64,000 nucleotides of DNA from Auanema rhodensis (lineage: Eukaryota > Animalia > Nematoda), in contig OZ059895.1 in NCBI GenBank assembly GCA_964057225.1, forward strand, positions 17,422,001 through 17,486,000, written 5' to 3'. How positions within the stretch are numbered: position 1 is the stretch's first letter; each line of letters begins with the position of its first letter. The notes under the pieces are model-generated. The model was not told the origin of the DNA. It ran no database searches and saw only the letters and a program-made list of their open reading frames with translations. The translations under genes and the position numbers were made by a program. This document shows positions 389 through 54,790 of this stretch, piece by piece.

Positions 389-543
389 AAACTATTTTGA
401 GGATTAATTCGTGCTTCTTGAAGCTTTTACTTCAGGTTACATCTTCTCTTATTCATTCGAATGAAATATTTTACTTCAATACGGAGCAGTATTGTTAAAA
501 GTGACAAAGTGATTATTATCGACAAATGAAAACAACTTATCAA

Positions 544-3500: not shown

Positions 3501-3864
3501 TCATTCGTGCTTCTCGAAGCTTTTACTTCAGGTTACATCTTCTCTTATTCATTCGAATGAAATATTTTACTTCAATACGAAGCAGTATTGTTAAAAGTGA
3601 CAAAGTGATTATTATCGACAAATGAAAACAACTTATCAAGCCTCATTGGCTCAGGGGCAGAGCGTCTGTCTAGTCGATTCCAGCATGAGGCATCGTTTTA
3701 GACTTTCTCAAACTATTTTGAGGATTAATTCGTGCTTCTCGAAGCTTTTACTTCAGGTTACATCTTCTCTTATTCATTCAAATGAATTGTTTCAATTGAA
3801 TATGTAAACGCATTGTTGAAAGTGACTAAGAGATTATAATCGAGAAATGAGAATAACTTTTTAA

Positions 3865-3889
3865 GCCTCATTGGCTCAGGGGCAGAGCG
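3865..3889 (+). pseudogene. 5' part of tRNA-Thr interrupted by LTR element 1 (3' part at 11643-11694)
   Basis: GCCTCA...GCAGAGCG then the LTR; the gene resumes at GAGCGTCTGTCTAGT at 11643. Confidence 0.95.
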
Positions 3890-4304
3890 TATCGCGAATG
3901 CGATTATCCATCATTCAATCGATGCAATCTCATCACGTTGGCTGATGAGATTCACGGGCACTCTGTTTTATACCACCGTCGCGGACGGTCGCTTTTCTCT
4001 CTCCTCGTTGCTGTCTTTATCTTATGACTCATCTAGTCTGAACCACCGTTTTATCCTTGTCCTTTAGTAAGACTATCTCTAGTCTCATTAGTGATGTATA
4101 TCTAGTCTTATTACATTCACTCTAGTCTTCTATGTATTTTATCTAGTCTTATTATATATCTTCTAGTCCTTATATTCTGTATTATGTATATCTGAATGGC
4201 ATATGAATGAATCTTTCTTCCTCTAATAGTATTTTACGTTAACAGGGCATAGAATAGAAAGTGTGAACCTGGGAGGCTATTTGAAGAGCCCTCTATCTTC
4301 AAAA
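3890..4304 (+). repeat. 5' LTR of element 1 (415 bp, TATCGCG...CTTCAAAA)
   Basis: Direct repeat of 11228-11642; followed immediately by the PBS. Confidence 0.95.
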
Positions 4305-4316
4305 TGGTGCATCGGC
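4305..4316 (+). promoter_or_regulatory. Primer binding site, probably for tRNA-Gly(GCC)
   Basis: TGGTGCATCGGC directly after the 5' LTR; complementary to ...CGATGCACCA, the 3' end of invertebrate tRNA-Gly(GCC) as I recall it. Confidence 0.8.
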
Positions 4317-4326
4317 ATCACTTTCT

Positions 4327-5330
4327 ACTCTATGACCTTTCTATTGCGCTACTTTATCTTTTTTCTTTTTTTTTCTTCAAGCCAGTCTGCTCGTTAATAG
4401 TGACTCGTTGGATGTCCTTTACAGTATAAGTTCACTGATCTAAATACTCTAAAGGAATCGTATGTCAGTATGACATAATTGGTTGTTAAATATTGTCTAG
4501 ATATCAGTGATAATTAAACATTATTTAAAATTTTGGTTGATACCATATTTTTGTACCACATGATTACAGAAAGTAACATAGTGGGTTGTTCGCTATATAA
4601 ACTCTATTGGATTACCCAATGGCTACTTCCTTTAACTTGCCGGCAGTGACTCAGCTGGGATTGATCACCCCTTATTATGTTTCACAGTATTTTCCTAGGA
4701 AGAATATGCGAGAGTACGAGAAAAATGCAGACAAAGTACCAACAAACACATTTTATGGCGATCTTATTTTTACTGACTGAGGACAGTGAGAAACAATGAT
4801 ATGAATTACGCATTAGCAAAGCTACCGTCTAAAAACGCTATTTATTCATTTATTCTTTGATTTTGAGACCTTTTTATATCTTTTATATTTTACGTAACTT
4901 TCAATAATCATTGCAAACAGTTTTGATAGACTTCGAGTGCAAAAGTTATTTTAACAATTGTGAATCAATTGAATAGGTGACTAAAAGGCATCTTAGACCA
5001 ATGTCTCCTTGCTATATGAGTAATGCTGTCTGTTTCCTCATCTGTAAAGGAGTCAGTATCTTAGAGATCAACGATTATTTGTGAACATGTGTGGAAGGAG
5101 CCTATCAACAAGGAACGTCTGTTGACCTACTTGTTGATGTTTGTTTGGTACCCTTGCACTCTCGGTAGGTGTTGTTTATATAAAAATGCGAAAGAGTTCC
5201 GAGTTTTTACTATTTACGGCTTGTTTTATAGTTTTTAAATTTCTTTATTCATCCATTGTCTGTAAATCTATTGTTTCCAACCATATGAGTCATATGTAAC
5301 GACCAACGGGTCAATGAGAAAGGTCAGAGT
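4327..5330 (+). other. Predicted large nested fold-back RNA structure in the element leader
   Basis: About ten complementary segment pairs in nested order, found by eye (see findings). Confidence 0.55.
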
Positions 5331-6994
5331 CCAAATCATGAAATTCATAAAATTTATATATTTTATCTTATATAAGATCATCACCCACGTTCTATAGGAC
5401 AAAATACATTAACTATATTGTTAAAATCCTACGCAGATGAAAATTTCTGTGAAAAATCACAAAACATCATAATATCCCATCCTACATAGATGAGATAATG
5501 ATAAGACACGAAAGAGCTACGAATTATCATCCTACGCATGTTAAAGCATAAAATATAAATCTCAGCAAAGGTTAAGAGATATTTCCAACATTTTGCACCA
5601 AAAAGTCGATTTTAGCAAATATGTTGACAAGATACGCGAAAAAAGACAAAAGATGTTGCCATCTGTTCATTGACCTGGTGCGGCGCCATTAGCACCACGC
5701 AAACATCTCTCACACATTATCTAGGTCATCATCGAATGACATGGAATATCAAAACATTTTAAAATGTTATGAGAAGTTAACCCACTCGTTTTGTTTCAAA
5801 CGCATTAAATAATCTCATTTAATAATCTTACATATACTTTTTGCAGATTAGCTCCTCCCTCTTAACATCCCACACGGCCTAGCTGCCAGACAGGTCATTC
5901 ATTCCGCCGCTACAACCAGCCACAGCACCCGACGCCATCTGCTAACCTATTCACCAGACAAGGACAATCGACATCAAGGATCCTCAAGGAGAATCAAGTT
6001 AGTTTTCATTTGTTCGCATTAACACTTTAACCGCTTATTGAATTTGAATTGATACTCTCTGGTATCAATTATACATTTACATTAAGTTGGTAAGTTATTT
6101 TATAATTTCAATTTGTTTTATTTTAATTTTATTATTTCACATTTTATATTGTTTATATTTCATTCACATCTGTTATCTTATACAATTTCCTTTGTTCATC
6201 TGTCCAGAAATAAATCTTTTGTCTCAAATCACTCATCCTTTTCATACACATACTTTCTGATCAATCAAACAATAATATTTTGAATATTTTTTGGATATCC
6301 TTATTATATTTCAACCAATTAATATTAATATTGATATTATATTTTTTGATAAAAAACAACAGCATATTTAGTATCAAATTACTCAGAAAACTTTACTGAA
6401 TTCATCCAAGCTAGTTTGCTCACATTTTTTGATCGATTTTGGGAAACTCAATTTTTTCTCTCTATTTCCTACAGTAATCTCTCAACTTGAATTGTTCTCT
6501 CATCTAGTGAATCATCCAATTTTTCTTTTTTAACCAGAGAAAGATACTTATTGAATTATCTTTGCCTGAACAATCTCCATTTTAAAAAAAAAAAAAAAAA
6601 AAATTAAAAATATACTAACTTAGCTAACAAAAAAAAAAAAAAATATATTCAAAAGATAAAACATACATTTTTTTACAAAAGATTCCACACAAGTAATTTA
6701 ACGAAACAGTAACAACTACACGAAAAAACTAACAGTATAACTCTCCAAAGAAAAAACTGTTAACAAATATTCAACTAAATATTCATTGTACCTTCTAATA
6801 GTGAACTATTTGCTTATCTTATTTGCTTATATTACTTGTTTATTTATATTCCTATTTATATTATATATTGTTATTCCTTCTATCGACAGCTATTATATTC
6901 GGACTTTAATTCAATTGATTTTAATAATCAATCCACAAATTAGCTAGATTAAACACAAAATTAACTTGAACAATAATATTTCTCTTCAAACAAA

Positions 6995-7039
6995 ATGATT
7001 ATGAGTCCCTCTTCTCCATCGGAAACTCGTAACTCGTAA
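6995..7039 (+). other. Short upstream ORF (MIMSPSSPSETRNS*), probably the original start of the long ORF, separated from it by a 7-bp tandem duplication
   Basis: AACTCGT duplicated at 7024-7037; removing one copy puts ATG 6995/7001 in frame with the long ORF. Confidence 0.65.
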
Positions 7040-7094
7040 CCTGACTGCCTTAGCAAGACAGTTAAGTTGTTTAAAAAGAAATATAACTCACGCG

Positions 7095-10000
7095 TTGAAG
7101 TTGTTCAACACGGTGAAGGAGGACATCCTCCCGTACCATCAAGCATTCATCTTCCCCCCGGTTGATGACATTGACAGATGTCGAGAGTTCATACATACGC
7201 ACAAGCCTAGCTTGATGCGTATATATTATAAAGCCATCCCGGTTGGGGACGTCTTCCGATCACTACGAGATCAGTTAGACGAACATCGAGTGGTGCTCGA
7301 GGAACGCACCCATGTGGACTACCCAGCAACTTGGTTGGAATTATACCAAGGTAGCTATAAAAGGATGTTGGCCAAACACCCTCAAGCCCATAAGACCATG
7401 AAAGCTCATGAAATCGACCAACTTGTCACCAAAGACATTGGCGAAGAACATCCGCCCACAGTTGCAAAACTGATCAAGGGCATTTTGGACTATTGTGATG
7501 AGAGAGATCTCATTGTGAACACAGGCGAAGTTGAGGAATATACTCAACTTATCCAACTTCGCCGAGATGAACTCGATGACTATCAGAGTTCATTTGACTC
7601 TACAGTACATGACTCAACAACATTGCAAAATGACATGAACAGAATGAAATACTCCAGAAAAAATTTAGAGATGAGTTTCTTTTCTGGAATACAAAAACAT
7701 TTAAACAACATTCAGAAAACACTTGACAAAATTTGGCAACGATGGCATAATGAATATGTCGTCGCCCTTCGAGCAACACACATGTTGGATCACAAGCAAG
7801 GACATTTCTCCACAGCTACACCAAAAGTAGGCACAGTAGTGCTAATGTCAGATGACAATACGAAACGAAACCAGTGGAAAATGGGTTTAATAACAAGCAT
7901 ACAGAACACGGAATCTGTGAGAGTTGCAGAAGTCCGTACATCTGATGGACACAAACTAATTAGACCCATCAATCGCCTGATTCCCCTTGAAATTCCTTCC
8001 GACAACGAGCATCATACGGAAAACAGTCATACGCAGTCCCCACACAAATCAGACAAAACTGTCACGTTTAAAGAAACTCCAGAGGTCATTTTACTCGATA
8101 ACGAAGTATCCACCGTTGTGGAAACCAGCACATCGACCGGACCCAATACAACTGAAAACGTGATAGACCCAAACGTTATCACTATCAACGATGATGATGA
8201 CATCGAAGTGATCACCATTGCAGATGATGAAGGTGAAAATGAACCACAACCTCGAAAACGACAACGTCTCCCCAGTTACACACATTTTTTCATAGCCATG
8301 ATACTGGGTATTCTCGTCAATACAATGTCCGCAACCAACATCTGCCAGTTCTCTTGCATCAAAGGAGGAGTAGGCATATCAAACTGCGGTACTGGACATC
8401 CCATCCGAGTTTGTGCCCGAGAAACATGTGTAGAGTACAACCCAAATACTCCCAACTTCACCATAGTATTTCCGGCTCATGTTGTATTGCATGACCACAC
8501 ATTCATCTCACGACATATTATCGATAAAAATGACACATTTGCATTGCATCAACTGGATTGTCCAGCAACTCCGTTTTGCGATATGATTCAATGTCTGTTC
8601 TGTCTTGAACTACTCCACAACCCATCTTGTTTCCCATACGCAGCACTCTCGGCGACCGCACTCATCATATGGCTCATTCTATTTAGCATTCTTTTAAGCA
8701 TCATAGTCATCCGAATTTGTTCTAAAAAATTTGTTCATATTGCACAATACACCCTTTTTTCCGTTTGGCGTATGATCACTCAATGTCTCCCATCTCATAT
8801 AAGATCTCATATCTCTATTCAGGAAGAACGATCGGTACTCGAGTACGTCCCGCTCAGTTCTCACAAGCTACCTCGATGGCAGAAGTCTACACCCTCACAA
8901 CGATCACGACAACGTGACCGATTAGTTCACCGAGTCGGGTATCTTTTGGTTGCAATAATCGTCATTTTTTTGATTGAATCTCTTGTAGTTAATGCATGTA
9001 CTATTGTTCCTCCGAGTATATCACATGTTCCAGGCAACTCCGTCTCGAACTTATCACCTACCCACCAAGTCAACCAAGTCAGCAGCTCCACCACCCTCCA
9101 TACTTACGATAATGAGGTATGTTTCACAACTTCACATTCAAACCGATCATACGCCAATCCCCTCACGAACTCACACCTGCGCATCAAACTTATGTATACA
9201 CGTATACTGTGCACGAAAGTATCCTTATTTTTTACACGTCACACCATCGTAAAAACTGAATCCGCAAAACGGTGTCCCCATATGGGCTCTTGTGTAGGAT
9301 CGTTTTGTGCGAACGTTCGACCCAATACATCAATCTCAGAACTCTCATTAGCCAACCAATATCCAGGTACCAGCTATTGTTCAGAAAGCTGTGGATTTCT
9401 ATCATGCGGTTGTGCGTTGCCAACTTCTGGTTGTCTCTTCTATCGCAACTTTCATGTTCCCAATGACAATATCACCCACGAAGTTTTCTACTGCTCACGA
9501 TGGACACCTAGGGTTTTTCTCCAGATTAGCATCCATACAGCTATTGAGAACAAAACTGAAACGATCTCGCACGTCCCCTTTTTACCACACTCTACAAAAA
9601 TCATTAACGGGTACCATATTACTCTTGGGAGAATAACATATTCTGATAATGAAATCCTCCATAGACGATTCATTACTTCCAACTCGAGAATTGCAGTTTT
9701 ACCTCACTCTGCTACATTTTCATACTCGTGCGGAAAAGTTAAAACCGCTGACCCATTCTCCGAATGTACTGTAACAGACACATGTTCATGCAGACCAGCC
9801 GAAACAGTCGAAAATTGCTATTGTCAGGACAGCAATCCTAACATGCTCTATACTAATAACTACACCCTACCATTATCTCTTCCATCTCTGACCATGATCC
9901 CAAAAAACAATCTCATTTTTGCTCATCCCATAAGCGCTGTTGACATTAAAATGTGGACAAATATCTCAGATGTCACTTATGAATACGACAATAGTCCTAC

Positions 10001-10637
10001 TATTTGCGAACTAAAATCCAAAGACCTAGTTGGATGTTTTGACTGTGTTACTGGAGCAACAACAATCATTACTTGCATCAGTACATCATCCCACATTCGA
10101 ATTTCGTGCGACGATGAAGAATTTCTGCTTACATGCAATTCTCAGGGTTACAACAACTCTATTCCCATACAGAGCAATTTTTCAACACCGTCTATAACGT
10201 GTACTCATCCGTGTACTTCCGCCACATTACATCTCAAAGGCAACTTGTACTACGTGAACGAATACATAGGTTTTGAACAGTCCACTCATCAGATTACAAA
10301 CAGTTCATTCAGTCTCCTGAACGTCGAGTTTACCATACCGAGCTTTTTTGTACCCACTCACTTAATCAGCTCACTTGTTTCGTTTTACTCGGACTACCTT
10401 AAAACGATTGTAATACTATTGAGTGTTTTGATCACAGTACTCGGCTTTGTAACCGCCGTAATTGACCGCGTCTTCCAGTTGTCAAGTACACCCGCTCTCC
10501 TAGCATATTTACCCATACAAATACTTATTATCTGCGCAATTCCTTTTCGCATCATTTTTTTCACAATTCATTTGTTGTTCAAGATTGTAGTTCGAGCCAG
10601 TCATAGCGCAGTGGCTAAGGGTACGCACTCTCAGTGA
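7095..10637 (+). CDS. Internally deleted BEL/Pao polyprotein: gag-like N-terminus, integrase C-terminal (DUF5641-like) domain, phlebovirus-like Gn/Gc envelope
   Basis: LDKIWQRWHNEY...PKVGTVVL...RNQWKMGLI...RPINRLIPLE (~7720-7995); signal-like FFIAMILGILVNTMSA; Cys-rich Gn with TM; second signal ending VVNA|C; Gc motifs RCPHMGSC and CSESCGFLSCGCALPTSGCLFYR; C-terminal TMs. Called start is TTG; frame is open from 7005; first in-frame ATG is 7215. Confidence 0.88.
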   Translation: MKLFNTVKEDILPYHQAFIFPPVDDIDRCREFIHTHKPSLMRIYYKAIPVGDVFRSLRDQLDEHRVVLEERTHVDYPATWLELYQGSYKRMLAKHPQAHKTMKAHEIDQLVTKDIGEEHPPTVAKLIKGILDYCDERDLIVNTGEVEEYTQLIQLRRDELDDYQSSFDSTVHDSTTLQNDMNRMKYSRKNLEMSFFSGIQKHLNNIQKTLDKIWQRWHNEYVVALRATHMLDHKQGHFSTATPKVGTVVLMSDDNTKRNQWKMGLITSIQNTESVRVAEVRTSDGHKLIRPINRLIPLEIPSDNEHHTENSHTQSPHKSDKTVTFKETPEVILLDNEVSTVVETSTSTGPNTTENVIDPNVITINDDDDIEVITIADDEGENEPQPRKRQRLPSYTHFFIAMILGILVNTMSATNICQFSCIKGGVGISNCGTGHPIRVCARETCVEYNPNTPNFTIVFPAHVVLHDHTFISRHIIDKNDTFALHQLDCPATPFCDMIQCLFCLELLHNPSCFPYAALSATALIIWLILFSILLSIIVIRICSKKFVHIAQYTLFSVWRMITQCLPSHIRSHISIQEERSVLEYVPLSSHKLPRWQKSTPSQRSRQRDRLVHRVGYLLVAIIVIFLIESLVVNACTIVPPSISHVPGNSVSNLSPTHQVNQVSSSTTLHTYDNEVCFTTSHSNRSYANPLTNSHLRIKLMYTRILCTKVSLFFTRHTIVKTESAKRCPHMGSCVGSFCANVRPNTSISELSLANQYPGTSYCSESCGFLSCGCALPTSGCLFYRNFHVPNDNITHEVFYCSRWTPRVFLQISIHTAIENKTETISHVPFLPHSTKIINGYHITLGRITYSDNEILHRRFITSNSRIAVLPHSATFSYSCGKVKTADPFSECTVTDTCSCRPAETVENCYCQDSNPNMLYTNNYTLPLSLPSLTMIPKNNLIFAHPISAVDIKMWTNISDVTYEYDNSPTICELKSKDLVGCFDCVTGATTIITCISTSSHIRISCDDEEFLLTCNSQGYNNSIPIQSNFSTPSITCTHPCTSATLHLKGNLYYVNEYIGFEQSTHQITNSSFSLLNVEFTIPSFFVPTHLISSLVSFYSDYLKTIVILLSVLITVLGFVTAVIDRVFQLSSTPALLAYLPIQILIICAIPFRIIFFTIHLLFKIVVRASHSAVAKGTHSQ

Positions 10638-10668
10638 TTGATGACGGGTTCAATACCCAGTGAGTCCT
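10597..10668 (+). ncRNA. Degenerate tRNA-like sequence with Pol III A and B boxes inside the element
   Basis: A box TAGCGCAGTGG 10604-10614; B box GGTTCAATACC 10647-10657 within a GGG/CCC T-stem; partial D and acceptor stems; T4 at 10676-10679. Confidence 0.55.
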
Positions 10669-10864
10669 CGATTTATTTTCTCGATTTCTTAGTTCCCTAT
10701 CATAGCAAACGATTGTTCAATTTGATTTACACCAGTCCTACACAATTTATCATTTTGCCGCGGGGAGGTATACTACGTATAAAAACCATCATTATTTCAG
10801 TCTTGATAACATCAAAGAATGGAGCGATTCCCTTGATCAACTCCAGGATAACGGCAACTCAAAG

Positions 10865-11194
10865 ATGCCTAACAAAAGTCAGAATACGTCTGCACCAAAA
10901 AAGCAGAACAACTCTAAAGTGAAGTACAGAAAAATGGAAGAAGACATGAAATGTCAACTCTGTTGGAAGAAGGGCCACACCATGGGAAAATGCACAGTCT
11001 ACAAGACTGCAGCACAACGCGTCAAGCGTTGCAAGTTGATCAACATGTGCTTGAAGTGTTTGCGGAACCACTTTGGAAAACCGTGTGTGGAGAAGATGAA
11101 GAAAATATGTCATGTGTGCAAAGGAAGCGGACTGGACCACGATCATCCTGGTGTATTATGCAAGCTGCAGTTTGCGGAGGAACTAGCAGAATGA
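10865..11194 (+). CDS. Stand-alone basic nucleocapsid-like protein with three BEL/Pao Gag-type zinc knuckles (109 aa)
   Basis: CQLCWKKGHTMGKC; CLKCLRNHFGKPC; CHVCKGSGLDHDHPGVLC; Lys-rich; own ATG; TATAAAAA at 10778 and TTTCAG acceptor at 10795-10800 upstream. Confidence 0.8.
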   Translation: MPNKSQNTSAPKKQNNSKVKYRKMEEDMKCQLCWKKGHTMGKCTVYKTAAQRVKRCKLINMCLKCLRNHFGKPCVEKMKKICHVCKGSGLDHDHPGVLCKLQFAEELAE

Positions 11195-11218
11195 AATCAG
11201 TTCTGATTTCTCTCTCCT

Positions 11219-11227
11219 GGCCCGGAA
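11219..11227 (+). promoter_or_regulatory. Putative plus-strand primer (PPT position)
   Basis: GGCCCGGAA immediately before the 3' LTR; only weakly purine-rich. Confidence 0.55.
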
Positions 11228-11642
11228 TATCGCGAATGCGATTATCCATCATTCAATCGATGCAATCTCATCACGTTGGCTGATGAGATTCACGGGCACT
11301 CTGTTTTATACCACCGTCGCGGACGGTCGCTTTTCTCTCTCCTCGTTGCTGTCTTTATCTTATGACTCATCTAGTCTGAACCACCGTTTTATCCTTGTCC
11401 TTTAGTAAGACTATCTCTAGTCTCATTAGTGATGTATATCTAGTCTTATTACATTCACTCTAGTCTTCTATGTATTTTATCTAGTCTTATTATATATCTT
11501 CTAGTCCTTATATTCTGTATTATGTATATCTGAATGGCATATGAATGAATCTTTCTTCCTCTAATAGTATTTTACGTTAACAGGGCATAGAATAGAAAGT
11601 GTGAACCTGGGAGGCTATTTGAAGAGCCCTCTATCTTCAAAA
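11228..11642 (+). repeat. 3' LTR of element 1 (415 bp)
   Basis: No difference from 3890-4304 seen by eye; followed by TSD GAGCG. Confidence 0.95.
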
Positions 11643-14600
11643 GAGCGTCTGTCTAGTAAACAGAAGGTCGCTGGTTCGATTCCAGCATGAGGCATCGTTT
11701 TAGACTTTTTCAAAATATTTTGAAGATTAATTCGTGCTTCTTGAAGCTTTTACTTCAGGTTACATCTTCTCTTATTCATTCGAATGAAATATTTTACTTC
11801 AATACGGAGCAGTATTGTTAAAAGTGACAAAGTGATTATTATCGACAAATGAAAACAACTTATCAAGCCTCATTGGCTCAGGGGCAGAGCGTCTGTCTAG
11901 TCGATTCCAGCATGAGGCATTGTTTTAGACTTTCTCAAACTATTTTGAGGATTAAATCGTGCTTCTCGAAGCTTTTACTTCAGGTTACATCTTCTCTTAT
12001 TCATTCAAATGAATTGTTTCAATTGAATATGTAAACGCATTGTTGAAAGTGACTAAGAGATTATAATCGAGAAATGAAAATAACTTTTTAAGCCTCATTG
12101 GCTCAGGGGCAGAGCGTCTGTCTAGTAAACAGAAGGTCGCTGGTTCGATTCCAGCATGAGGCATCTTTTTAGACTTTCTCAAACTATTTTTAGGATTCAT
12201 TCGTGCTTCTCGAAGCTTTTACTTCAGGTTACATCTTCTCTTATTCATTCGAATGAAATATTTTACTTCAATACGGAGCAGTATTGTTAAAAGTGACAAA
12301 GTGATTATTATCGACAAATGAAAACAACTTATCAAGCCTCATTGGCTCAGGGGCAGAGCGTCTGTCTAGTAAACAGAAGGTCGCTGGTTCGATTCCAGCA
12401 TGAGGCATCGTTTTAAACTTTTTCAAAATATTTTGAGGATTAATTCGTGCTTCTTGAAGCTTTTACTTCAGGTTACATCTTCTCTTATTCATTCGAATGA
12501 AATATTTTACTTCAATACGGAGCAGTATTGTTAAAAGTGACAAAGTGATTATTATCGACAAATGAAAACAACTTATCAAGCCTCATTGGCTCAGGGGCAG
12601 AGCGTCTGTCTAGTAAACAGAAGGTCGCTGGTTCGATTCCAGCATGAGGCATCGTTTTAGACTTTTTCAAACTATTTTGAGGATTAATTCGTGCTTCTTG
12701 AAGCTTTTACTTCAGGTTACATCTTCTCTTATTCATTCGAATGAAATATTTTACTTCAATACGAAGCAGTATTGTTAAAAGTGACAAAGTGATTATTATC
12801 GACAAATGAAAACAACTTATCAAGCCTCATTGGCTCAGGGGCAGAGCGTCTGTCTAGTCGATTCCAGCATGAGGCATCGTTTTAGACTTTCTCAAACTAT
12901 TTTGAGGATTAATTCGTGCTTCTCGAAGCTTTTACTTCAGGTTACATCTTCTCTTATTCATTCAAATGAATTGTTTCAATTGAATATGTAAACGCATTGT
13001 TGAAAGTGACTAAGAGATTATAATCGAGAAATGAGAATAACTTTTTAAGCCTCATTGGCTCAGGGGCAGAGCGTCTGTCTAGTAAACAGAAGGTCGCTGG
13101 TTCGATTCCAGCATGAGGCATCGTTTTAGACTTTTTCAAAATATTTTGAAGATTAATTCGTGCTTCTTGAAGCTTTTACTTCAGGTTACATCTTCTCTTA
13201 TTCATTCGAATGAAATATTTTACTTCAATACGGAGCAGTATTGTTAAAAGTGACAAAGTGATTATTATCGACAAATGAAAACAACTTATCAAGCCTCATT
13301 GGCTCAGGGGCAGAGCGTCTGTCTAGTCGATTCCAGCATGAGGCATTGTTTTAGACTTTCTCAAACTATTTTGAGGATTAAATCGTGCTTCTCGAAGCTT
13401 TTACTTCAGGTTACATCTTCTCTTATTCATTCAAATGAATTGTTTCAATTGAATATGTAAACGCATTGTTGAAAGTGACTAAGAGATTATAATCGAGAAA
13501 TGAAAATAACTTTTTAAGCCTCATTGGCTCAGGGGCAGAGCGTCTGTCTAGTAAACAGAAGGTCGCTGGTTCGATTCCAGCATGAGGCATCTTTTTAGAC
13601 TTTCTCAAACTATTTTTAGGATTAATTCGTGCTTCTTGAAGCTTTTACTTCAGGTTACATCTTCTCTTATTCATTCGAATGAAATATTTTACTTCAATAC
13701 GGAGCAGTATTGTTAAAAGTGACAAAGTGATTATTATCGACAAATGAAAACAACTTATCAAGCCTCATTGGCTCAGGGGCAGAGCGTCTGTCTAGTCGAT
13801 TCCAGCATGAGGCATTGTTTTAGACTTTCTCAAACTATTTTGAGGATTAAATCGTGCTTCTCGAAGCTTTTACTTCAGGTTACATCTTCTCTTATTCATT
13901 CAAATGAATTGTTTCAATTGAATATGTAAACGCATTGTTGAAAGTGACTAAGAGATTATAATCGAGAAATGAAAATAACTTTTTAAGCCTCATTGGCTCA
14001 GGGGCAGAGCGTCTGTCTAGTAAACAGAAGGTCGCTGGTTCGATTCCAGCATGAGGCATCTTTTTAGACTTTCTCAAACTATTTTTAGGATTAATTCGTG
14101 CTTCTCGAAGCTTTTACTTCAGGTTACATCTTCTCTTATTCATTCGAATGAAATATTTTACTTCAATACGGAGCAGTATTGTTAAAAGTGACAAAGTGAT
14201 TATTATCGACAAATGAAAACAACTTATCAAGCCTCATTGGCTCAGGGGCAGAGCGTCTGTCTAGTCGATTCCAGCATGAGGCATTGTTTTAGACTTTCTC
14301 AAACTATTTTGAGGATTAATTCGTGCTTCTCGAAGCTTTTACTTCAGGTTACATCTTCTCTTATTCATTCAAATGAATTGTTTCAATTGAATATGTAAAC
14401 GCATTGTTGAAAGTGACTAAGAGATTATAATCGAGAAATGAGAATAACTTTTTAAGCCTCATTGGCTCAGGGGCAGAGCGTCTGTCTAGTAAACAGAAGG
14501 TCGCTGGTTCGATTCCAGCATGAGGCATCGTTTTAGACTTTTTCAAAATATTTTGAAGATTAATTCGTGCTTCTTGAAGCTTTTACTTCAGGTTACATCT

Positions 14601-45656: not shown

Positions 45657-46072
45657 TATCGCGAATGCGATTATCCATCATTCAATCGATGCAATCTCAT
45701 CACGTTGGCTGATGAGATTCACGGGCACTCTGTTTTTATACCACCGTCGCGGACGGTCGCTTTTCTCTCTCCTCGTTGCTGTCTTTATCTTATGACTCAT
45801 CTAGTCTGAACCACCGTTTTATCCTTGTCCTTTAGTAAGACTATCTCTAGTCTCATTAGTGATGTATATCTAGTCTTATTACATTCACTCTAGTCTTCTA
45901 TGTATTTTATCTAGTCTTATTATATATCTTCTAGTCCTTATATTCTGTATTATGTATATCTGAATGGCATATGAATGAATCTTTCTTCCTCTAATAGTAT
46001 TTTACGTTAACAGGGCATAGAATAGAAAGTGTGAACCTGGGAGGCTATTTGAAGAGCCCTCTATCTTCAAAA
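45657..46072 (+). repeat. 5' LTR of element 2 (416 bp)
   Basis: Direct repeat of 52996-53411. Confidence 0.95.
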
Positions 46073-46084
46073 TGGTGCATCGGC
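46073..46084 (+). promoter_or_regulatory. Primer binding site, probably tRNA-Gly(GCC)
   Basis: TGGTGCATCGGC after the 5' LTR. Confidence 0.8.
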
Positions 46085-48862
46085 ATCACTTTCTACTCTA
46101 TGACCTTTCTATTGCGCTACTTTATCTTTTTTCTTTTTTTTCTTCAAGCCAGTCTGCTCGTTAATAGTGACTCGTTGGATGTCCTTTACAGTATAAGTTC
46201 AATGATCTAAATACTCTAAAGGAATCGTATGTCAGTACGACATAATTGGTTGTTAAATATTGTCTAGATATCAGTGATAATTAAACATTATTTAAAATTT
46301 TGGTTGATACCATATTTTTGTACCACATGATTACAGAAAGTAACATAGTGGGTTGTTCGCTATATAAACTCTATTGGATTACCCAATGGCTACTTCCTTT
46401 AACTTGCCGGCAGTGACTCAGCTGGGATTGATCACCCCTTATTATGTTTCACAGTATTTTCCTAGGAAGAATATGCGAGAGTACGAGAAAAATGCAGACA
46501 AAGTACCAACAAACACATTTTATGGCGATCTTATTTTTACTGACTGAGGACAGTGAGAAACAATGATATGAATTACGCATTAGCAAAGCTACCGTCTAAA
46601 AACGCTATTTATTCATTTATTCTTTGATTTTGAGACCTTTTTATATCTTTTATATTTTACGTAACTTTCAATAATCATTGCAAACAGTTTTGATAGACTT
46701 CGAGTGCAAAAGTTATTTTAACAATTGTGAATCAATTGAATAGGTGACTAAAAGGCATCTTAGACCAATGTCTCCTTGCTATATGAGTAATGCTGTCTGT
46801 TTCCTCATCTGTAAAGGAGTCAGTATCTTAGAGATCAACGATTATTTGTGAACATGTGTGGAAGGAGCCTATCAACAAGGAACGTCTGTTGACCTACTTG
46901 TTGATGTTTGTTTGGTACCCTTGCACTCTCGGTAGGTGTTGTTTATATAAAAATGCGAAAGAGTTCCGAGTTTTTACTATTTACGGCTTGTTTTATAGTT
47001 TTTAAATTTCTTTATTCATCCATTGTCTGTAAATCTATTGTTTCCAACCATATGAGTCATATGTAACGACCAACGGGTCAATGAGAAAGGTCAGAGTCCA
47101 AATCATGAAATTCATAAAATTTATATATTTTATCTTATATAAGATCATCACCCACGTTCTATAGGACAAAATACATTAACTATATTGTTAAAATCCTACG
47201 CAGATGAAAATTTCTGTGAAAAATCACAAAACATCATAATATCCCATCCTACATAGATGAGATAATGATAAGACACGAAAGAGCTACGAATTATCATCCT
47301 ACGCATGTTAAAGCATAAAATATAAATCTCAGCAAAGGTTAAGAGATATTTCCAACATTTTGCACCAAAAAGTCGATTTTAGCAAATATGTTGACAAGAT
47401 ACGCGAAAAAAGACAAAAGATGTTGCCATCTGTTCATTGACCTGGTGCGGCGCCATTAGCACCACGCAAACATCTCTCACACATTATCTAGGTCATCATC
47501 GAATGACATGGAATATCAAAACATTTTAAAATGTTATGAGAAGTTAACCCACTCGTTTTGTTTCAAACGCATTAAATAATCTCATTTAATAATCTTACAT
47601 ATACTTTTTGCAGATTAGCTCCTCCCTCTTAACATCCCACACGGCCTAGCTGCCAGACAGGTCATTCATTCCGCCGCTACAACCAGCCACAGCACCCGAC
47701 GCCATCTGCTAACCTATTCACCAGACAAGGACAATCGACATCAAGGATCCTCAAGGAGAATCAAGTTAGTTTTCATTTGTTCGCATTAACACTTTAACCG
47801 CTTATTGAATTTGAATTGATACTCTCTGGTATCAATTATACATTTACATTAAGTTGGTAAGTTATTTTATAATTTCAATTTGTTTTATTTTAATTTTATT
47901 ATTTCACATTTTATATTGTTTATATTTCATTCACATCTGTTATCTTATACAATTTCCTTTGTTCATCTGTCCAGAAATAAATCTTTTGTCTCAAATCACT
48001 CATCCTTTTCATACACATACTTTCTGATCAATCAAACAATAATATTTTGAATATTTTTTGGATATCCTTATTATATTTCAACCAATTAATATTAATATTG
48101 ATATTATATTTTTTGATAAAAAACAACAGCATATTTAGTATCAAATTACTCAGAAAACTTTACTGAATTCATCCAAGCTAGTTTGCTCACATTTTTTGAT
48201 CGATTTTGGGAAACTCAATTTTTTCTCTCTATTTCCTACAGTAATCTCTCAACTTGAATTGTTCTCTCATCTAGTGAATCATCCAATTTTTCTTTTTTAA
48301 CCAGAGAAAGATACTTATTGAATTATCTTTGCCTGAACAATCTCCATTTTAAAAAAAAAAAAAAAAAAAATTAAAAATATACTAACTTAGCTAACAAAAA
48401 AAAAAAAAAAATATATTCAAAAGATAAAACATACATTTTTTTACAAAAGATTCCACACAAGTAATTTAACGAAACAGTAACAACTACACGAAAAAACTAA
48501 CAGTATAACTCTCCAAAGAAAAAACTGTTAACAAATATTCAACTAAATATTCATTGTACCTTCTAATAGTGAACTATTTGCTTATCTTATTTGCTTATAT
48601 TACTTGTTTATTTATATTCCTATTTATATTATATATTGTTATTCCTTCTATCGACAGCTATTATATTCGGACTTTAATTCAATTGATTTTAATAATCAAT
48701 CCACAAATTAGCTAGATTAAACACAAAATTAACTTGAACAATAATATTTCTCTTCAAACAAAATGATTATGAGTCCCTCTTCTCCATCGGAAACTCGTAA
48801 CTCGTAACCTGACTGCCTTAGCAAGACAGTTAAGTTGTTTAAAAAGAAATATAACTCACGCG

Positions 48863-51800
48863 TTGAAGTTGTTCAACACGGTGAAGGAGGACATCCTCCC
48901 GTACCATCAAGCATTCATCTTCCCCCCGGTTGATGACATTGACAGATGTCGAGAGTTCATACATACGCACAAGCCTAGCTTGATGCGTATATATTATAAA
49001 GCCATCCCGGTTGGGGACGTCTTCCGATCACTACGAGATCAGTTAGACGAACATCGAGTGGTGCTCGAGGAACGCACCCATGTGGACTACCCAGCAACTT
49101 GGTTGGAATTATACCAAGGTAGCTATAAAAGGATGTTGGCCAAACACCCTCAAGCCCATAAGACCATGAAAGCTCATGAAATCGACCAACTTGTCACCAA
49201 AGACATTGGCGAAGAACATCCGCCCACAGTTGCAAAACTGATCAAGGGCATTTTGGACTATTGTGATGAGAGAGATCTCATTGTGAACACAGGCGAAGTT
49301 GAGGAATATACTCAACTTATCCAACTTCGCCGAGATGAACTCGATGACTATCAGAGTTCATTTGACTCTACAGTACATGACTCAACAACATTGCAAAATG
49401 ACATGAACAGAATGAAATACTCCAGAAAAAATTTAGAGATGAGTTTCTTTTCTGGAATACAAAAACATTTAAACAACATTCAGAAAACACTTGACAAAAT
49501 TTGGCAACGATGGCATAATGAATATGTCGTCGCCCTTCGAGCAACACACATGTTGGATCACAAGCAAGGACATTTCTCCACAGCTACACCAAAAGTAGGC
49601 ACAGTAGTGCTAATGTCAGATGACAATACGAAACGAAACCAGTGGAAAATGGGTTTAATAACAAGCATACAGAACACGGAATCTGTGAGAGTTGCAGAAG
49701 TCCGTACATCTGATGGACACAAACTAATTAGACCCATCAATCGCCTGATTCCCCTTGAAATTCCTTCCGACAACGAGCATCATACGGAAAACAGTCATAC
49801 GCAGTCCCCACACAAATCAGACAAAACTGTCACGTTTAAAGAAACTCCAGAGGTCATTTTACTCGATAACGAAGTATCCACCGTTGTGGAAACCAGCACA
49901 TCGACCGGACCCAATACAACTGAAAACGTGATAGACCCAAACGTTATCACTATCAACGATGATGATGACATCGAAGTGATCACCATTGCAGATGATGAAG
50001 GTGAAAATGAACCACAACCTCGAAAACGACAACGTCTCCCCAGTTACACACATTTTTTCATAGCCATGATACTGGGTATTCTCGTCAATACAATGTCCGC
50101 AACCAACATCTGCCAGTTCTCTTGCATCAAAGGAGGAGTAGGCATATCAAACTGCGGTACTGGACATCCCATCCGAGTTTGTGCCCGAGAAACATGTGTA
50201 GAGTACAACCCAAATACTCCCAACTTCACCATAGTATTTCCGGCTCATGTTGTATTGCATGACCACACATTCATCTCACGACATATTATCGATAAAAATG
50301 ACACATTTGCATTGCATCAACTGGATTGTCCAGCAACTCCGTTTTGCGACATGATTCAATGTCTGTTCTGTCTTGAACTACTCCACAACCCATCTTGTTT
50401 CCCATACGCAGCACTCTCGGCGACCGCACTCATCATATGGCTCATTCTATTTAGCATTCTTTTAAGCATCATAGTCATCCGAATTTGTTCTAAAAAATTT
50501 GTTCATATTGCACAATACACCCTTTTTTCCGTTTGGCGTATGATCACTCAATGTCTCCCATCTCATATAAGATCTCATATCTCTATTCAGGAAGAACGAT
50601 CGGTACTCGAGTACGTCCCGCTCAGTTCTCACAAGCTACCTCGATGGCAGAAGTCTACACCCTCACAACGATCACGACAACGTGACCGATTAGTTCACCG
50701 AGTCGGGTATCTTTTGGTTGCAATAATCGTCATTTTTTTGATTGAATCTCTTGTAGTTAATGCATGTACTATTGTTCCTCCGAGTATATCACATGTTCCA
50801 GGCAACTCCGTCTCGAACTTATCACCTACCCACCAAGTCAACCAAGTCAGCAGCTCCACCACCCTCCATACTTACGATAATGAGGTATGTTTCACAACTT
50901 CACATTCAAACCGATCATACGCCAATCCCCTCACGAACTCACACCTGCGCATCAAACTTATGTATACACGTATACTGTGCACGAAAGTATCCTTATTTTT
51001 TACACGTCACACCATCGTAAAAACTGAATCCGCAAAACGGTGTCCCCATATGGGCTCTTGTGTAGGATCGTTTTGTGCGAACGTTCGACCCAATACATCA
51101 ATCTCAGAACTCTCATTAGCCAACCAATATCCAGGTACCAGCTATTGTTCAGAAAGCTGTGGATTTCTATCATGCGGTTGTGCGTTGCCAACTTCTGGTT
51201 GTCTCTTCTATCGCAACTTTCATGTTCCCAATGACAATATCACCCACGAAGTTTTCTACTGCTCACGATGGACACCTAGGGTTTTTCTCCAGATTAGCAT
51301 CCATACAGCTATTGAGAACAAAACTGAAACGATCTCGCACGTCCCCTTTTTACCACACTCTACAAAAATCATTAACGGGTACCATATTACTCTTGGGAGA
51401 ATAACATATTCTGATAATGAAATCCTCCATAGACGATTCATTACTTCCAACTCGAGAATTGCAGTTTTACCTCACTCTGCTACATTTTCATACTCGTGCG
51501 GAAAAGTTAAAACCGCTGACCCATTCTCCGAATGTACTGTAACAGACACATGTTCATGCAGACCAGCCGAAACAGTCGAAAATTGCTATTGTCAGGACAG
51601 CAATCCTAACATGCTCTATACTAATAACTACACCCTACCATTATCTCTTCCATCTCTGACCATGATCCCAAAAAACAATCTCATTTTTGCTCATCCCATA
51701 AGCGCTGTTGACATTAAAATGTGGACAAATATCTCAGATGTCACTTATGAATACGACAATAGTCCTACTATTTGCGAACTAAAATCCAAAGACCTAGTTG

Positions 51801-52405
51801 GATGTTTTGACTGTGTTACTGGAGCAACAACAATCATTACTTGCATCAGTACATCATCCCACATTCGAATTTCGTGCGACGATGAAGAATTTCTGCTTAC
51901 ATGCAATTCTCAGGGTTACAACAACTCTATTCCCATACAGAGCAATTTTTCAACACCGTCTATAACGTGTACTCATCCGTGTACTTCCGCCACATTACAT
52001 CTCAAAGGCAACTTGTACTACGTGAACGAATACATAGGTTTTGAACAGTCCACTCATCAGATTACAAACAGTTCATTCAGTCTCCTGAACGTCGAGTTTA
52101 CCATACCGAGCTTTTTTGTACCCACTCACTTAATCAGCTCACTTGTTTCGTTTTACTCGGACTACCTTAAAACGATTGTAATACTATTGAGTGTTTTGAT
52201 CACAGTACTCGGCTTTGTAACCGCCGTAATTGACCGCGTCTTCCAGTTGTCAAGTACACCCGCTCTCCTAGCATATTTACCCATACAAATACTTATTATC
52301 TGCGCAATTCCTTTTCGCATCATTTTTTTCACAATTCATTTGTTGTTCAAGATTGTAGTTCGAGCCAGTCATAGCGCAGTGGCTAAGGGTACGCACTCTC
52401 AGTGA
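48863..52405 (+). CDS. Internally deleted BEL/Pao polyprotein with phlebovirus-like Gn/Gc (copy 2)
   Basis: Translation identical to 7095-10637; the same 7-bp duplication lies upstream (48792-48805). Confidence 0.88.
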   Translation: MKLFNTVKEDILPYHQAFIFPPVDDIDRCREFIHTHKPSLMRIYYKAIPVGDVFRSLRDQLDEHRVVLEERTHVDYPATWLELYQGSYKRMLAKHPQAHKTMKAHEIDQLVTKDIGEEHPPTVAKLIKGILDYCDERDLIVNTGEVEEYTQLIQLRRDELDDYQSSFDSTVHDSTTLQNDMNRMKYSRKNLEMSFFSGIQKHLNNIQKTLDKIWQRWHNEYVVALRATHMLDHKQGHFSTATPKVGTVVLMSDDNTKRNQWKMGLITSIQNTESVRVAEVRTSDGHKLIRPINRLIPLEIPSDNEHHTENSHTQSPHKSDKTVTFKETPEVILLDNEVSTVVETSTSTGPNTTENVIDPNVITINDDDDIEVITIADDEGENEPQPRKRQRLPSYTHFFIAMILGILVNTMSATNICQFSCIKGGVGISNCGTGHPIRVCARETCVEYNPNTPNFTIVFPAHVVLHDHTFISRHIIDKNDTFALHQLDCPATPFCDMIQCLFCLELLHNPSCFPYAALSATALIIWLILFSILLSIIVIRICSKKFVHIAQYTLFSVWRMITQCLPSHIRSHISIQEERSVLEYVPLSSHKLPRWQKSTPSQRSRQRDRLVHRVGYLLVAIIVIFLIESLVVNACTIVPPSISHVPGNSVSNLSPTHQVNQVSSSTTLHTYDNEVCFTTSHSNRSYANPLTNSHLRIKLMYTRILCTKVSLFFTRHTIVKTESAKRCPHMGSCVGSFCANVRPNTSISELSLANQYPGTSYCSESCGFLSCGCALPTSGCLFYRNFHVPNDNITHEVFYCSRWTPRVFLQISIHTAIENKTETISHVPFLPHSTKIINGYHITLGRITYSDNEILHRRFITSNSRIAVLPHSATFSYSCGKVKTADPFSECTVTDTCSCRPAETVENCYCQDSNPNMLYTNNYTLPLSLPSLTMIPKNNLIFAHPISAVDIKMWTNISDVTYEYDNSPTICELKSKDLVGCFDCVTGATTIITCISTSSHIRISCDDEEFLLTCNSQGYNNSIPIQSNFSTPSITCTHPCTSATLHLKGNLYYVNEYIGFEQSTHQITNSSFSLLNVEFTIPSFFVPTHLISSLVSFYSDYLKTIVILLSVLITVLGFVTAVIDRVFQLSSTPALLAYLPIQILIICAIPFRIIFFTIHLLFKIVVRASHSAVAKGTHSQ

Positions 52406-52436
52406 TTGATGACGGGTTCAATACCCAGTGAGTCCT
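52365..52436 (+). ncRNA. Degenerate tRNA-like A/B-box module (copy 2)
   Basis: Same sequence as 10597-10668. Confidence 0.55.
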
Positions 52437-52632
52437 CGATTTATTTTCTCGATTTCTTAGTTCCCTATCATAGCAAACGATTGTTCAATTTGATTTACAC
52501 CAGTCCTACACAATTTATCATTTTGCCGCGGGGAGGTATACTACGTATAAAAACCATCATTATTTCAGTCTTGATAACATCAAAGAATGGAGCGATTCCC
52601 TTGATCAACTCCAGGATAACGGCAACTCAAAG

Positions 52633-52962
52633 ATGCCTAACAAAAGTCAGAATACGTCTGCACCAAAAAAGCAGAACAACTCTAAAGTGAAGTACAGAAA
52701 AATGGAAGAAGACATGAAATGTCAACTCTGTTGGAAGAAGGGCCACACCATGGGAAAATGCACAGTCTACAAGACTGCAGCACAACGCGTCAAGCGTTGC
52801 AAGTTGATCAACATGTGCTTGAAGTGTTTGCGGAACCACTTTGGAAAACCGTGTGTGGAGAAGATGAAGAAAATATGTCATGTGTGCAAAGGAAGCGGAC
52901 TGGACCACGATCATCCTGGTGTATTATGCAAGCTGCAGTTTGCGGAGGAACTAGCAGAATGA
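52633..52962 (+). CDS. Stand-alone triple zinc-knuckle nucleocapsid-like protein (copy 2)
   Basis: Identical to 10865-11194. Confidence 0.8.
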   Translation: MPNKSQNTSAPKKQNNSKVKYRKMEEDMKCQLCWKKGHTMGKCTVYKTAAQRVKRCKLINMCLKCLRNHFGKPCVEKMKKICHVCKGSGLDHDHPGVLCKLQFAEELAE

Positions 52963-52995
52963 AATCAGTTCTGATTTCTCTCTCCTGGCCCGGAA

Positions 52996-53411
52996 TATCG
53001 CGAATGCGATTATCCATCATTCAATCGATGCAATCTCATCACGTTGGCTGATGAGATTCACGGGCACTCTGTTTTTATACCACCGTCGCGGACGGTCGCT
53101 TTTCTCTCTCCTCGTTGCTGTCTTTATCTTATGACTCATCTAGTCTGAACCACCGTTTTATCCTTGTCCTTTAGTAAGACTATCTCTAGTCTCATTAGTG
53201 ATGTATATCTAGTCTTATTACATTCACTCTAGTCTTCTATGTATTTTATCTAGTCTTATTATATATCTTCTAGTCCTTATATTCTGTATTATGTATATCT
53301 GAATGGCATATGAATGAATCTTTCTTCCTCTAATAGTATTTTACGTTAACAGGGCATAGAATAGAAAGTGTGAACCTGGGAGGCTATTTGAAGAGCCCTC
53401 TATCTTCAAAA
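52996..53411 (+). repeat. 3' LTR of element 2 (416 bp)
   Basis: Preceded by GGCCCGGAA and followed by TSD GCTGG. Confidence 0.95.
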
Positions 53412-54790
53412 GCTGGTTCGATTCCAGCATGAGGCATCGTTTTAGACTTTCTCAAACTATTTTGAGGATTAATTCGTGCTTCTCGAAGCTTTTACTTCAG
53501 GTTACATCTTCTCTTATTCATTCAAATGAATTGTTTCAATTGAATATGTAAACGCATTGTTGAAAGTGACTAAGAGATTATAATCGAGAAATGAAAATAA
53601 CTTTTTAAGCCTCATTGGCTCAGGGGCAGAGCGTCTGTCTAGTAAACAGAAGGTCGCTGGTTCGATTCCAGCATGAGGAATCGTTTTAGACTTTTTCAAA
53701 ATATTTTGAAGATTAATTCGTGCTTCTTGAAGCTTTTACTTCAGGTTACATCTTCTCTTATTCATTCGAATGAAATATTTTACTTCAATATGGAGCAGTA
53801 TTGTTAAAAGTGACAAAGTGATTATTATCGACAAATGAAAACAACTTATCAAGCCTCATTGGCTCAGGGGCAGAGCGTCTGTCTAGTAAACAGAAGGTCG
53901 CTGGTTCGATTCCAGCATGAGGCATCGTTTTAGACTTTTTCAAACTATTTTGAGGATTAATTCGTGCTTCTTGAAGCTTTTACTTCAGGTTACATCTTCT
54001 CTTATTCATTCGAATGAAATATTTTACTTCAACACGGAGCAGTATTGTTAAAAGTGACAAAGTGATTTATATCGACAAATGAAAACAACTTATCAAGCCT
54101 CATTGGCTCAGGAGCAGAGCGTCTGTCTAGTCGATTCCAACATGAGGCATCGTTTTAGACTTTCTCAAACTATTTTTAGGATTCATTCGTGCTTCTTGAA
54201 GCTTTTACTTCAGGTTACATCTTCTCTTATTCATTCGAATGAAATATTTTACTTCAATACGGAGCAGTATTGTTAAAAGTGACAAAGTGATTATTATCGA
54301 CAAATGAAAACAACTTATCAAGCCTCATTGGCTCAGGGGCAGAGCGTCTGTCTAGTAAACAGAAGGTCGCTGGTTCGATTCCAGCATGAGGAATCGTTTT
54401 AGACTTTTTCAAAATATTTTGAAGATTAATTCGTGCTTCTTGAAGCTTTTACTTCAGGTTACATCTTCTCTTATTCATTCGAATGAAATATTTTACTTCA
54501 ATACGGAGCAGTATTGTTCAAAGTGACAAAGTGATTATTATCGACAAAAGAAAACAACTTATCAAGCCTCATTGGCTCAGGGGCAGAGCGTCTGTCTAGT
54601 CGATTCCAGCATGAGGCATCGTTTTAGACTTTCTCAAACTATTTTGAGGATTAATTCGTGCTTCTTGAAGCTTTTACTTCAGGTTACATCTTCTCTTATT
54701 CATTCGAATGAAATATTTTACTTCAATACGGAGCAGTATTGTTGAAAGTGACTAAGAGATTATTATCGACAAATGAAATTAACTTATCAA

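What the first reader, a model, noticed from the sequence alone, without database searches (positions are those of the whole stretch)
3885..53416. Both elements inserted inside the tRNA-Thr coding sequence, next to the A and B boxes, in the same orientation
Seen: insertion 1 duplicates GAGCG (D-stem 3' strand, standard positions 22-26, just after the A box). Insertion 2 duplicates GCTGG (T-stem, positions 49-53, at the B box). Both hit intact-type gene sequence and are co-oriented, and both sites read G-N3-G then T. The gene is only ~30% of a unit, so two of two is ~9% by chance: suggestive only. Known: Ty1/Ty3 and Dictyostelium elements target tRNA gene flanks. I know of no BEL/Pao family that targets the inside of tRNA genes. 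Inference: TFIIIC- or sequence-guided targeting to a redundant safe-harbour array.
Basis: partly seen in the sequence, partly recalled or inferred. Interest (0 to 1): 0.8.

Follow-up and report, generated by a model that had tools for sequence, protein, structure and literature searches.

The report
Retrovirus-like element inside tRNA genes, twice
Two young copies of one worm retrovirus-like jumping gene sit inside transfer-RNA genes of a long tandem array, at two different spots; the family likely prefers such genes, which our searches found reported for no member of its group, but two copies cannot prove it.

Summary
Two independent, very young insertions (7.75 kb, identical LTR pairs, 5-bp TSDs at tRNA positions 22-26 and 49-53) interrupt intact-type tRNA-Thr(AGT) genes, in the same orientation. 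The element is a non-autonomous, env-bearing nematode-type BEL/Pao (belpaovirus) derivative that lacks RT and the integrase core. A longer form branches off at the deletion point in 2 of 4 runs laid there. Chance that both sites fall in gene sequence is 6.5% (3.4% for intact genes). A plain GC-rich site preference would raise this to 71%. The shared G-N3-G-T motif, the orientation and A/B-box proximity are not significant. Stronger hints: two copies of a family of roughly 3-30 lie within 48 kb; none of 8 runs clearly breaks at both LTR ends, as fixed copies in unique DNA should; Drosophila Pao elements prefer AT-rich sites; and the integrase tail has three SUMO-binding-like motifs, against at most one in each of 58 relatives. 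No third junction could be read, so targeting stays untested. Best reading: loose, chromatin-tethered preference for tRNA genes (about 0.42), against repeat-compartment plus GC preference (0.27) or chance (0.27).

The parts
1..64000 (+). Tandem tRNA-Thr(AGT) array: 201 gene starts, 244-bp units with a whole gene (132 genes of 70-72 bp) mixed with 225/227-bp units whose gene lacks 17-19 bp (69)
3865..3889 (+). 5' part of interrupted tRNA gene 1, ending in the left TSD GAGCG (3885-3889; standard positions 22-26)
3890..11642 (+). Element copy 1, 7753 bp, non-autonomous env-bearing BEL/Pao derivative
3890..4304 (+). 5' LTR, 415 bp, identical to 3' LTR; termini TA...AA rather than TG...CA
4305..4316 (+). 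Primer-binding site starting TGG; only its first 6 nt complement the array's tRNA-Thr 3' end, so the primer is another tRNA (Gly-like, recalled, untested)
   Evidence: comparison by eye
7005..10637 (+). 1210-codon open frame (stop to stop): unassigned N-terminal part, likely a Gag remnant, fused in frame at about 7701-7707 to DUF5641 (aa 234-328), tail, then Env with Phlebovirus_G2 (aa 693-974); no RT, RNase H or integrase-core hit
7995..8279 (+). 95-aa tail between DUF5641 and the Env signal peptide, with an RVxF-like motif (8055-8069), three SIM-like motifs (8085-8105, 8175-8201, 8208-8231) and a basic NLS-like run (8250-8267); candidate tether, untested
   Evidence: motif patterns recalled
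10706..11194 (+). 162-codon frame after env with three Cys/His knuckle-like clusters; weak matches to related polyproteins (best E 1e-6 in a 153-protein search)
   Evidence: no Pfam hit
11228..11642 (+). 3' LTR of copy 1, preceded by a purine-poor PPT position (11216-11227)
11643..11694 (+). Right TSD GAGCG (11643-11647) and rest of interrupted gene 1, intact type
45605..45656 (+). 5' part of interrupted tRNA gene 2, ending in the left TSD GCTGG (45652-45656; standard positions 49-53)
45657..53411 (+). Element copy 2, 7755 bp; LTRs 45657-46072 and 52996-53411 (416 bp, identical); 3 substitutions and 4 one-base indels from copy 1
53412..53436 (+). Right TSD GCTGG (53412-53416) and rest of interrupted gene 2

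Best explanation
Two copies of a young, non-autonomous BEL/Pao element lie at two different positions inside tRNA-Thr genes of this array, likely because the integrase of a longer helper copy is drawn to tRNA-gene chromatin and then cuts loosely within the gene. SHOWN: independent insertions with 5-bp TSDs; no RT or integrase core in these copies; a longer form branching off at the deletion point in other runs; an integrase-tail region with three SIM-like motifs, an RVxF-like motif and a basic run. INFERRED: mobilisation in trans by the longer form; regional preference; a protein tether rather than DNA-sequence recognition, since the sites share no significant motif. GUESSED: the tether is tail binding to SUMO-marked Pol III chromatin (about 0.15 on its own). 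Hundreds of identical genes would make the array a low-cost landing place.
For: (1) One hypothesis explains both the regional and the in-gene placement. Region: rough copy number 3 (X11) to 12-30 (X3) from variant depths. Random expectation in 48 kb is 0.0006-0.024 copies; P of 2 or more in the whole Thr array is under 0.05 in 14 of 18 assumed parameter sets. (2) In-gene: 6.5% by length, 0.2-3.3% under a Drosophila Pao-type AT-rich preference (PMC3276498 passages). Both sites match 2 of 10 motif positions; about 10% of array positions score that low. (3) Contigs cross both LTR ends unbroken in 5 of 8 runs and only one end breaks in the other 3; a fixed copy in unique DNA should break both (inference from recalled assembler behaviour). 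(4) Tail: 3 SIM-like motifs versus none in 56 and one in 2 of 58 relatives with a usable DUF5641 end (58 of 153 proteins held); 112 of 20,000 shuffles reach 3. (5) Precedent: the Ty1 integrase C-terminus tethers to Pol III (PMC7459421, PMC10050235, search listing only); SUMO is enriched at active human tRNA genes (PMC3787255 passages).
Against: n = 2, and the window was picked because it shows this. No third junction was read. 0 of 8 runs gave an LTR-to-array joint, and insertion 2's own junction was not seen either, so that test is insensitive. A GC-rich site preference gives P = 0.71 for both in-gene. Contig depth is not a copy number (tool warning), genome size was assumed, and 4 of 18 parameter sets give P of 0.05-0.48. 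Unbroken LTR ends also fit unfixed insertions anywhere. The SIM pattern was chosen after seeing the tail, and SUMO also marks satellite repeats. Known Pol III-tethered LTR elements land beside, not inside, the gene (PMC5911963 passages).
Confidence: 0.42

Rival explanations
1. The element prefers, or survives in, repetitive low-selection chromatin in general (satellite and RNA-gene blocks, possibly germline-restricted), and its integrase likes GC-rich 5-mers, which in this AT-rich array are almost all in the gene.
For: Both TSDs are 80% GC; gene GC 0.56 versus spacer 0.29; 84% of such 5-mers are in gene-derived DNA. In the nematode Auanema rhodense 19,554 tRNA loci are annotated, tRNA arrays are among the eliminated DNA, TE-derived genes are enriched there, and the authors call it weakly surveilled (bioRxiv 10.64898/2026.08.27.747507, passages). 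ZAM shows that an LTR integrase can prefer a GC-rich site (PMC2527525 passages). SIM-like motifs would fit SUMO-rich heterochromatin as well.
Against: It needs two separate assumptions. All LTR families in the Drosophila survey, Pao included, had AT-rich palindromic motifs. Survival alone is unlikely to give a roughly 100-fold local excess of brand-new copies (inference). Whether this array is germline-restricted was not tested, and the host species is not established.
Confidence: 0.27
2. Chance plus ascertainment: an active family inserts nearly at random, the array is large, and a scan of many windows turns up one with two hits.
For: With 30 copies and a 0.7-3 Mb array, P of 2 or more reaches 0.05-0.48 in 4 of 6 such sets; in-gene 6.5%, orientation 0.5 and motif 17% are each unremarkable.
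Against: It needs both the regional and the in-gene coincidence; no run shows the two-sided LTR break expected of fixed copies in unique DNA (weak).
Confidence: 0.27
3. Dada-like recognition of a fixed DNA sequence or of the A/B boxes, or homology-guided insertion.
For: Both sites read G-N3-G-T; Dada targets cluster at the A box and anticodon (PMC8869645 passages).
Against: Two different positions 27 bp apart; contexts no more alike than random in-gene pairs; longest LTR-gene match 6 nt; the PBS does not fit tRNA-Thr beyond 6 nt.
Confidence: 0.03
4. One insertion copied by array turnover, or an assembly artefact.
For: The copies differ at only 7 places in 7.75 kb.
Against: Different TSDs and gene positions; a 1-bp LTR difference shared by both LTRs of each copy; both LTR length forms occur in independent runs.
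Confidence: 0.01

Closest known systems
Nematode belpaoviruses with phlebovirus-like Env (Atlas virus of Ancylostoma ceylanicum; Cer13 named as its neighbour), PMC9094657 and bioRxiv 10.64898/2026.03.22.711591 (passages)
   Same: LTRs, DUF5641 followed by Phlebovirus_G2 Env in one frame, three Cys/His knuckle-like clusters; the five best named relatives are from Ancylostoma, Auanema, Cylicostephanus and Trichostrongylus at 30-34% identity.
   Different: Internally deleted; knuckle frame lies after env; termini TA...AA; SIM-rich tail; the Atlas papers give no hit for 'tRNA' (both) or 'target site' (PMC9094657).
Pol III-targeting LTR retrotransposons Ty1, Ty3, Tj1, DGLT-A, Skipper-2 (PMC5911963 passages)
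   Same: LTR element associated with tRNA genes; a candidate targeting module in the integrase C-terminus.
   Different: Those are copia or gypsy elements of fungi and amoebae and insert upstream or downstream, leaving the gene whole; here the gene is broken and targeting is unproven.
Dada DNA transposons (PMC8869645 passages) and non-LTR families NeSL-1_TV, LIN15_SM, LIN25_SM (PMC4640811 passages)
   Same: Specific for multicopy tRNA genes; Dada inserts inside the gene.
   Different: Different element classes; Dada uses fixed positions with conserved target sequence, whereas here the two positions differ and share no significant motif.
Drosophila Pao-group elements roo, 3S18, Max (PMC3276498 passages)
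   Same: 5-bp TSD.
   Different: Their target motif is AT-rich and palindromic (AWTAWNWTAWT); these two sites match 2 of 10 positions and are GC-rich.

Membership tests
BEL/Pao (Belpaoviridae), nematode env-bearing type | Direct LTRs with PBS and 5-bp TSD | tested here: met
   415/416-bp identical LTRs, TGG-starting PBS, 5-bp TSDs; 5 bp is the Pao-group length
BEL/Pao (Belpaoviridae), nematode env-bearing type | DUF5641 followed by phlebovirus-like Env in one polyprotein | tested here: met
   PF18701 E 1e-14, PF07245 E 3e-64; same order in 4 of 4 relatives scanned
BEL/Pao (Belpaoviridae), nematode env-bearing type | RT, Pao peptidase A17 and integrase core (autonomy; RT phylogeny) | tested here: not met
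   No such Pfam hit in either frame of 150+ codons; so filed only as a non-autonomous derivative
BEL/Pao (Belpaoviridae), nematode env-bearing type | Three CCHC knuckles in Gag NC | tested here: inconclusive
   Three knuckle-like clusters present, but in a separate frame after env
BEL/Pao (Belpaoviridae), nematode env-bearing type | TG...CA LTR termini (recalled norm) | tested here: not met
   All 4 of 4 LTRs read TA...AA
Pol III-tethered LTR elements (Ty1/Ty3/DGLT-A/Skipper-2 type) | Insertion in the flank, gene left intact | tested here: not met
   2 of 2 inside the gene
Pol III-tethered LTR elements (Ty1/Ty3/DGLT-A/Skipper-2 type) | Most genomic copies at Pol III genes | tested here: inconclusive
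   No genome held; no further junction read in 8 runs
Pol III-tethered LTR elements (Ty1/Ty3/DGLT-A/Skipper-2 type) | Integrase binds the Pol III machinery | not testable with these tools
   Only motif-level hints in the tail
Fixed-site tRNA-gene inserters (Dada type) | Same position and conserved target sequence in independent copies | tested here: not met
   Positions 22-26 versus 49-53; context similarity at chance level

The most novel reading that the evidence does not exclude
An animal LTR retrotransposon of the BEL/Pao group that homes to the inside of tRNA genes in giant tandem arrays, without a fixed site, through an integrase tail that binds SUMO-marked Pol III chromatin. It would be a third way of tRNA-gene targeting, beside flank tethering (Ty1/Ty3) and fixed-site recognition (Dada).
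Probability: 0.3. Interest if true: 0.8.

Novelty: new variant of a known kind. Interest (0 to 1): 0.52.

Why it matters
In the review passages read, tRNA-targeting LTR elements are copia or gypsy types from fungi and amoebae that spare the gene. A BEL/Pao family of an animal that breaks tRNA genes inside redundant arrays would be a new convergence. It would show that giant tRNA arrays act as landing places, and it points to a short, testable integrase-tail module. If the genome-wide test fails, what remains is a young, internally deleted, env-retaining element with unusual termini: minor.

Tried and rejected
Own genome: none held. LTR-end patterns: 0 matches in metagenome and viral contigs. 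Related loci: 0 confirmed of 2 and of 13 candidate stretches. Word-index protein searches: nothing for the Env region at near length or for the 162-aa frame; 5 distant full-length relatives among longer proteins. The protein atlas gave no answer. Eight of 11 runs were laid, all contigs: no LTR-to-array joint; contigs drop rare junctions, so this is no evidence of absence. A 6-bp TSD with the LTR starting one base later was considered because both targets go on with T; rejected as less likely since the T belongs to all four LTRs, an X8 contig starts on it and 5 bp is the group's norm. Primer- or homology-guided targeting rejected (6-nt matches only). No complex was folded: no host SUMO or Pol III sequence was on hand. 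The Cer-element survey (Ganko 2001, recalled) is not held. PMC5006619 and PMC5741268 gave no useful passage. Not in print as far as searched: searches listed no BEL/Pao family that targets tRNA genes; some searches sought nematode tRNA arrays. The library lacks most subscription papers, and Repbase reports were not searched. Supplements of the A. rhodense preprint (repeat, RNA-gene and TE tables) were not seen and may bear on the compartment rival.
Full report
OBSERVATION. The window is one tandem tRNA-Thr(AGT) array: 201 gene starts, 132 whole genes of 70-72 bp and 69 with an internal 17-19-bp deletion. Two 7.75-kb elements interrupt it, at 3890-11642 and 45657-53411. Each has identical LTRs (415 and 416 bp) and a perfect 5-bp TSD: GAGCG at standard positions 22-26, and GCTGG at 49-53 (numbering by eye). 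Both genes are intact-type and both elements lie on +. The copies differ by 3 substitutions and 4 one-base indels; one indel is shared by both LTRs of each copy, and both LTR length forms occur in independent runs. Neither insertion has been duplicated with the array; the unit hit by copy 1 belongs to a class of 17 identical units among 200. These are two independent, very recent events.

WHAT THE ELEMENT IS. One 1210-codon frame holds DUF5641 (E 1e-14) and Phlebovirus_G2 (E 3e-64), with no RT, RNase H or integrase-core hit. The five best Env relatives, looked up out of 150 listed (814 hits), are nematode proteins at 30-34% identity; 4 of 4 scanned relatives have the same domain order. This fits nematode belpaoviruses such as Atlas (PMC9094657 and bioRxiv 2026.03.22.711591, passages). 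Contigs of X3 and X11 leave the element exactly at the fusion point before DUF5641, so a longer form exists; that it is an autonomous helper is inferred, and its coding content was not read. The LTR termini are TA...AA. The host is a nematode by inference only.

IS IN-GENE PLACEMENT MORE THAN CHANCE? On the rebuilt 48,482-bp empty array, both TSDs fall in gene-derived DNA with P = 0.065, in intact genes with P = 0.034. But gene GC is 0.56 and spacer GC 0.29; 84% of 5-mers with four or more G/C lie in gene sequence, so a GC-rich preference gives P = 0.71. The shared G-N3-G-T is met or beaten by 17% of random in-gene pairs, and the 35-bp contexts by 36%. Orientation is a coin toss. On the other side, the Drosophila Pao group prefers AT-rich palindromic sites (PMC3276498, passages). 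Both sites here match 2 of 10 positions of that motif, and weighting by it lowers P to 0.002-0.033. So the sites are atypical for the group whichever reading holds.

IS THE ARRAY ITSELF PREFERRED? No genome is held, and collection scans found no relatives with flanks. Eleven public runs of three studies hold the element, all as contigs; eight were laid. Variant depths suggest about 3 copies in X11 and 12-30 in X3; the tool warns that depth is no copy number. With 3-30 copies and an assumed 60-250 Mb genome, 0.0006-0.024 copies are expected in 48 kb. P of two or more in the whole array is under 0.05 in 14 of 18 parameter sets and up to 0.48 in the rest; window selection is not corrected for. 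Contigs cross both LTR ends unbroken in X1, X2, X4, X5 and X6 (in X5 the letters before the LTR were not shown). X8 breaks at the 5' end only; X11 and X3 appear to break at the 3' end only (X11 inferred from distance-to-end figures; X3's 5' end uncertain). A fixed copy in unique DNA should break both ends (inference from recalled assembler behaviour), so copies seem to lie in repeats or to be unfixed. Against: no LTR-to-array joint was seen in 8 of 8 runs, though the window's own second junction was also unseen, so the test is blunt. Low spacer-to-element depth in X2 and X5, and no spacer at the listed position in X4, suggest copies outside this array.

CANDIDATE MECHANISM. The 95 residues between DUF5641 and the Env signal peptide carry three SIM-like motifs, an RVxF-like motif and a basic run (patterns recalled). 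Of 153 related proteins held, 58 had a usable DUF5641 end: 56 have no SIM-like motif, 2 have one. 112 of 20,000 shuffles of the tail reach three, with the pattern chosen after seeing the tail. Ty1 targets Pol III genes through a short integrase C-terminal segment (PMC7459421, PMC10050235; search listing). SUMO is enriched at active tRNA genes, and also at satellite repeats, in fibroblast ChIP data (PMC3787255, passages). A tail-to-chromatin tether followed by loose cutting would explain regional excess, in-gene sites and the lack of a fixed position. All of this is inferred or guessed; none was tested.

RIVALS. Repeat-compartment preference or survival plus GC-rich sites (0.27) has a precedent in A. 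rhodense, whose eliminated DNA includes tRNA arrays and is rich in TE-derived genes (bioRxiv 2026.08.27.747507, passages; supplements not seen); whether this array is of that kind is unknown. Chance with ascertainment (0.27) cannot be excluded at n = 2. Fixed-site recognition (0.03) and duplication or artefact (0.01) are contradicted by the data.

KNOWN SYSTEMS. It is a non-autonomous derivative of nematode env-bearing BEL/Pao elements. If targeting is real, it works like Ty1/Ty3/Skipper-2 (tether) but lands like Dada (inside the gene), and fails a defining test of each (PMC5911963, PMC8869645, PMC4640811; passages). Six searches listed no BEL/Pao family that targets tRNA genes, within a library that lacks most subscription papers. 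Earlier scan notes held nothing on this genome; word look-ups added only non-LTR precedents and self-priming notes.

VERDICT. Observation confirmed; interpretation partly supported and untested. A junction census in the source reads would settle it. Interest 0.52; 0.8 if targeting holds (probability about 0.3 for the full novel reading, 0.42 for tRNA-gene preference by any tether).

Noticed in passing
window 3890-3892, 4302-4304, 11228, 11642, 45657, 46072, 52996, 53411: All four LTRs have TA...AA termini instead of the usual TG...CA (norm recalled), yet both insertions have perfect 5-bp TSDs.
   Followed up: partly
window 7701-7707 (49469-49475 in copy 2): In-frame fusion point just before DUF5641. 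Contigs of X3 and X11 leave the element here (over 255 letters on both sides in X3), so a longer form exists; the deleted form keeps an open env frame.
   Followed up: partly
window 7995-8279: Integrase-tail region with three SIM-like motifs, an RVxF-like motif and a basic run; 0 of 58 relatives have two or more SIM-like motifs, 2 of 58 have an RVxF-like one.
   Followed up: partly
window 10706-11194: Separate frame with three knuckle-like clusters downstream of env, an odd place for a nucleocapsid-like module.
   Followed up: partly
window 4244-4338: U5, PBS and leader fold into one long hairpin (z = -4.35, 0 of 200 shuffles) in which part of the PBS pairs with the LTR; earlier scan notes report LTR-paired primer sites in other BEL/Pao families, but here the PBS starts with a normal TGG.
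   Followed up: partly
window 4330-7000: About 2.7 kb of AT-rich DNA between PBS and the long frame with no frame of 100 codons; origin unexplained.
   Followed up: no
window 54000-64000: About 1 kb right of insertion 2 the array turns to mostly deleted, more diverged units, as at an array edge; left of it short higher-order blocks of units recur.
   Followed up: no
runs X2, X4, X5 laid on window 45413-46140: The element is over 99.8% identical in runs under different organism labels (X4: 2 other letters and at most 1 gap in each of two 3.2-kb contigs), while another tRNA-Thr gene type is at far higher depth than this array's spacer in X2 and X4; mixed samples, cross-contamination or transfer between species are all open.
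   Followed up: no
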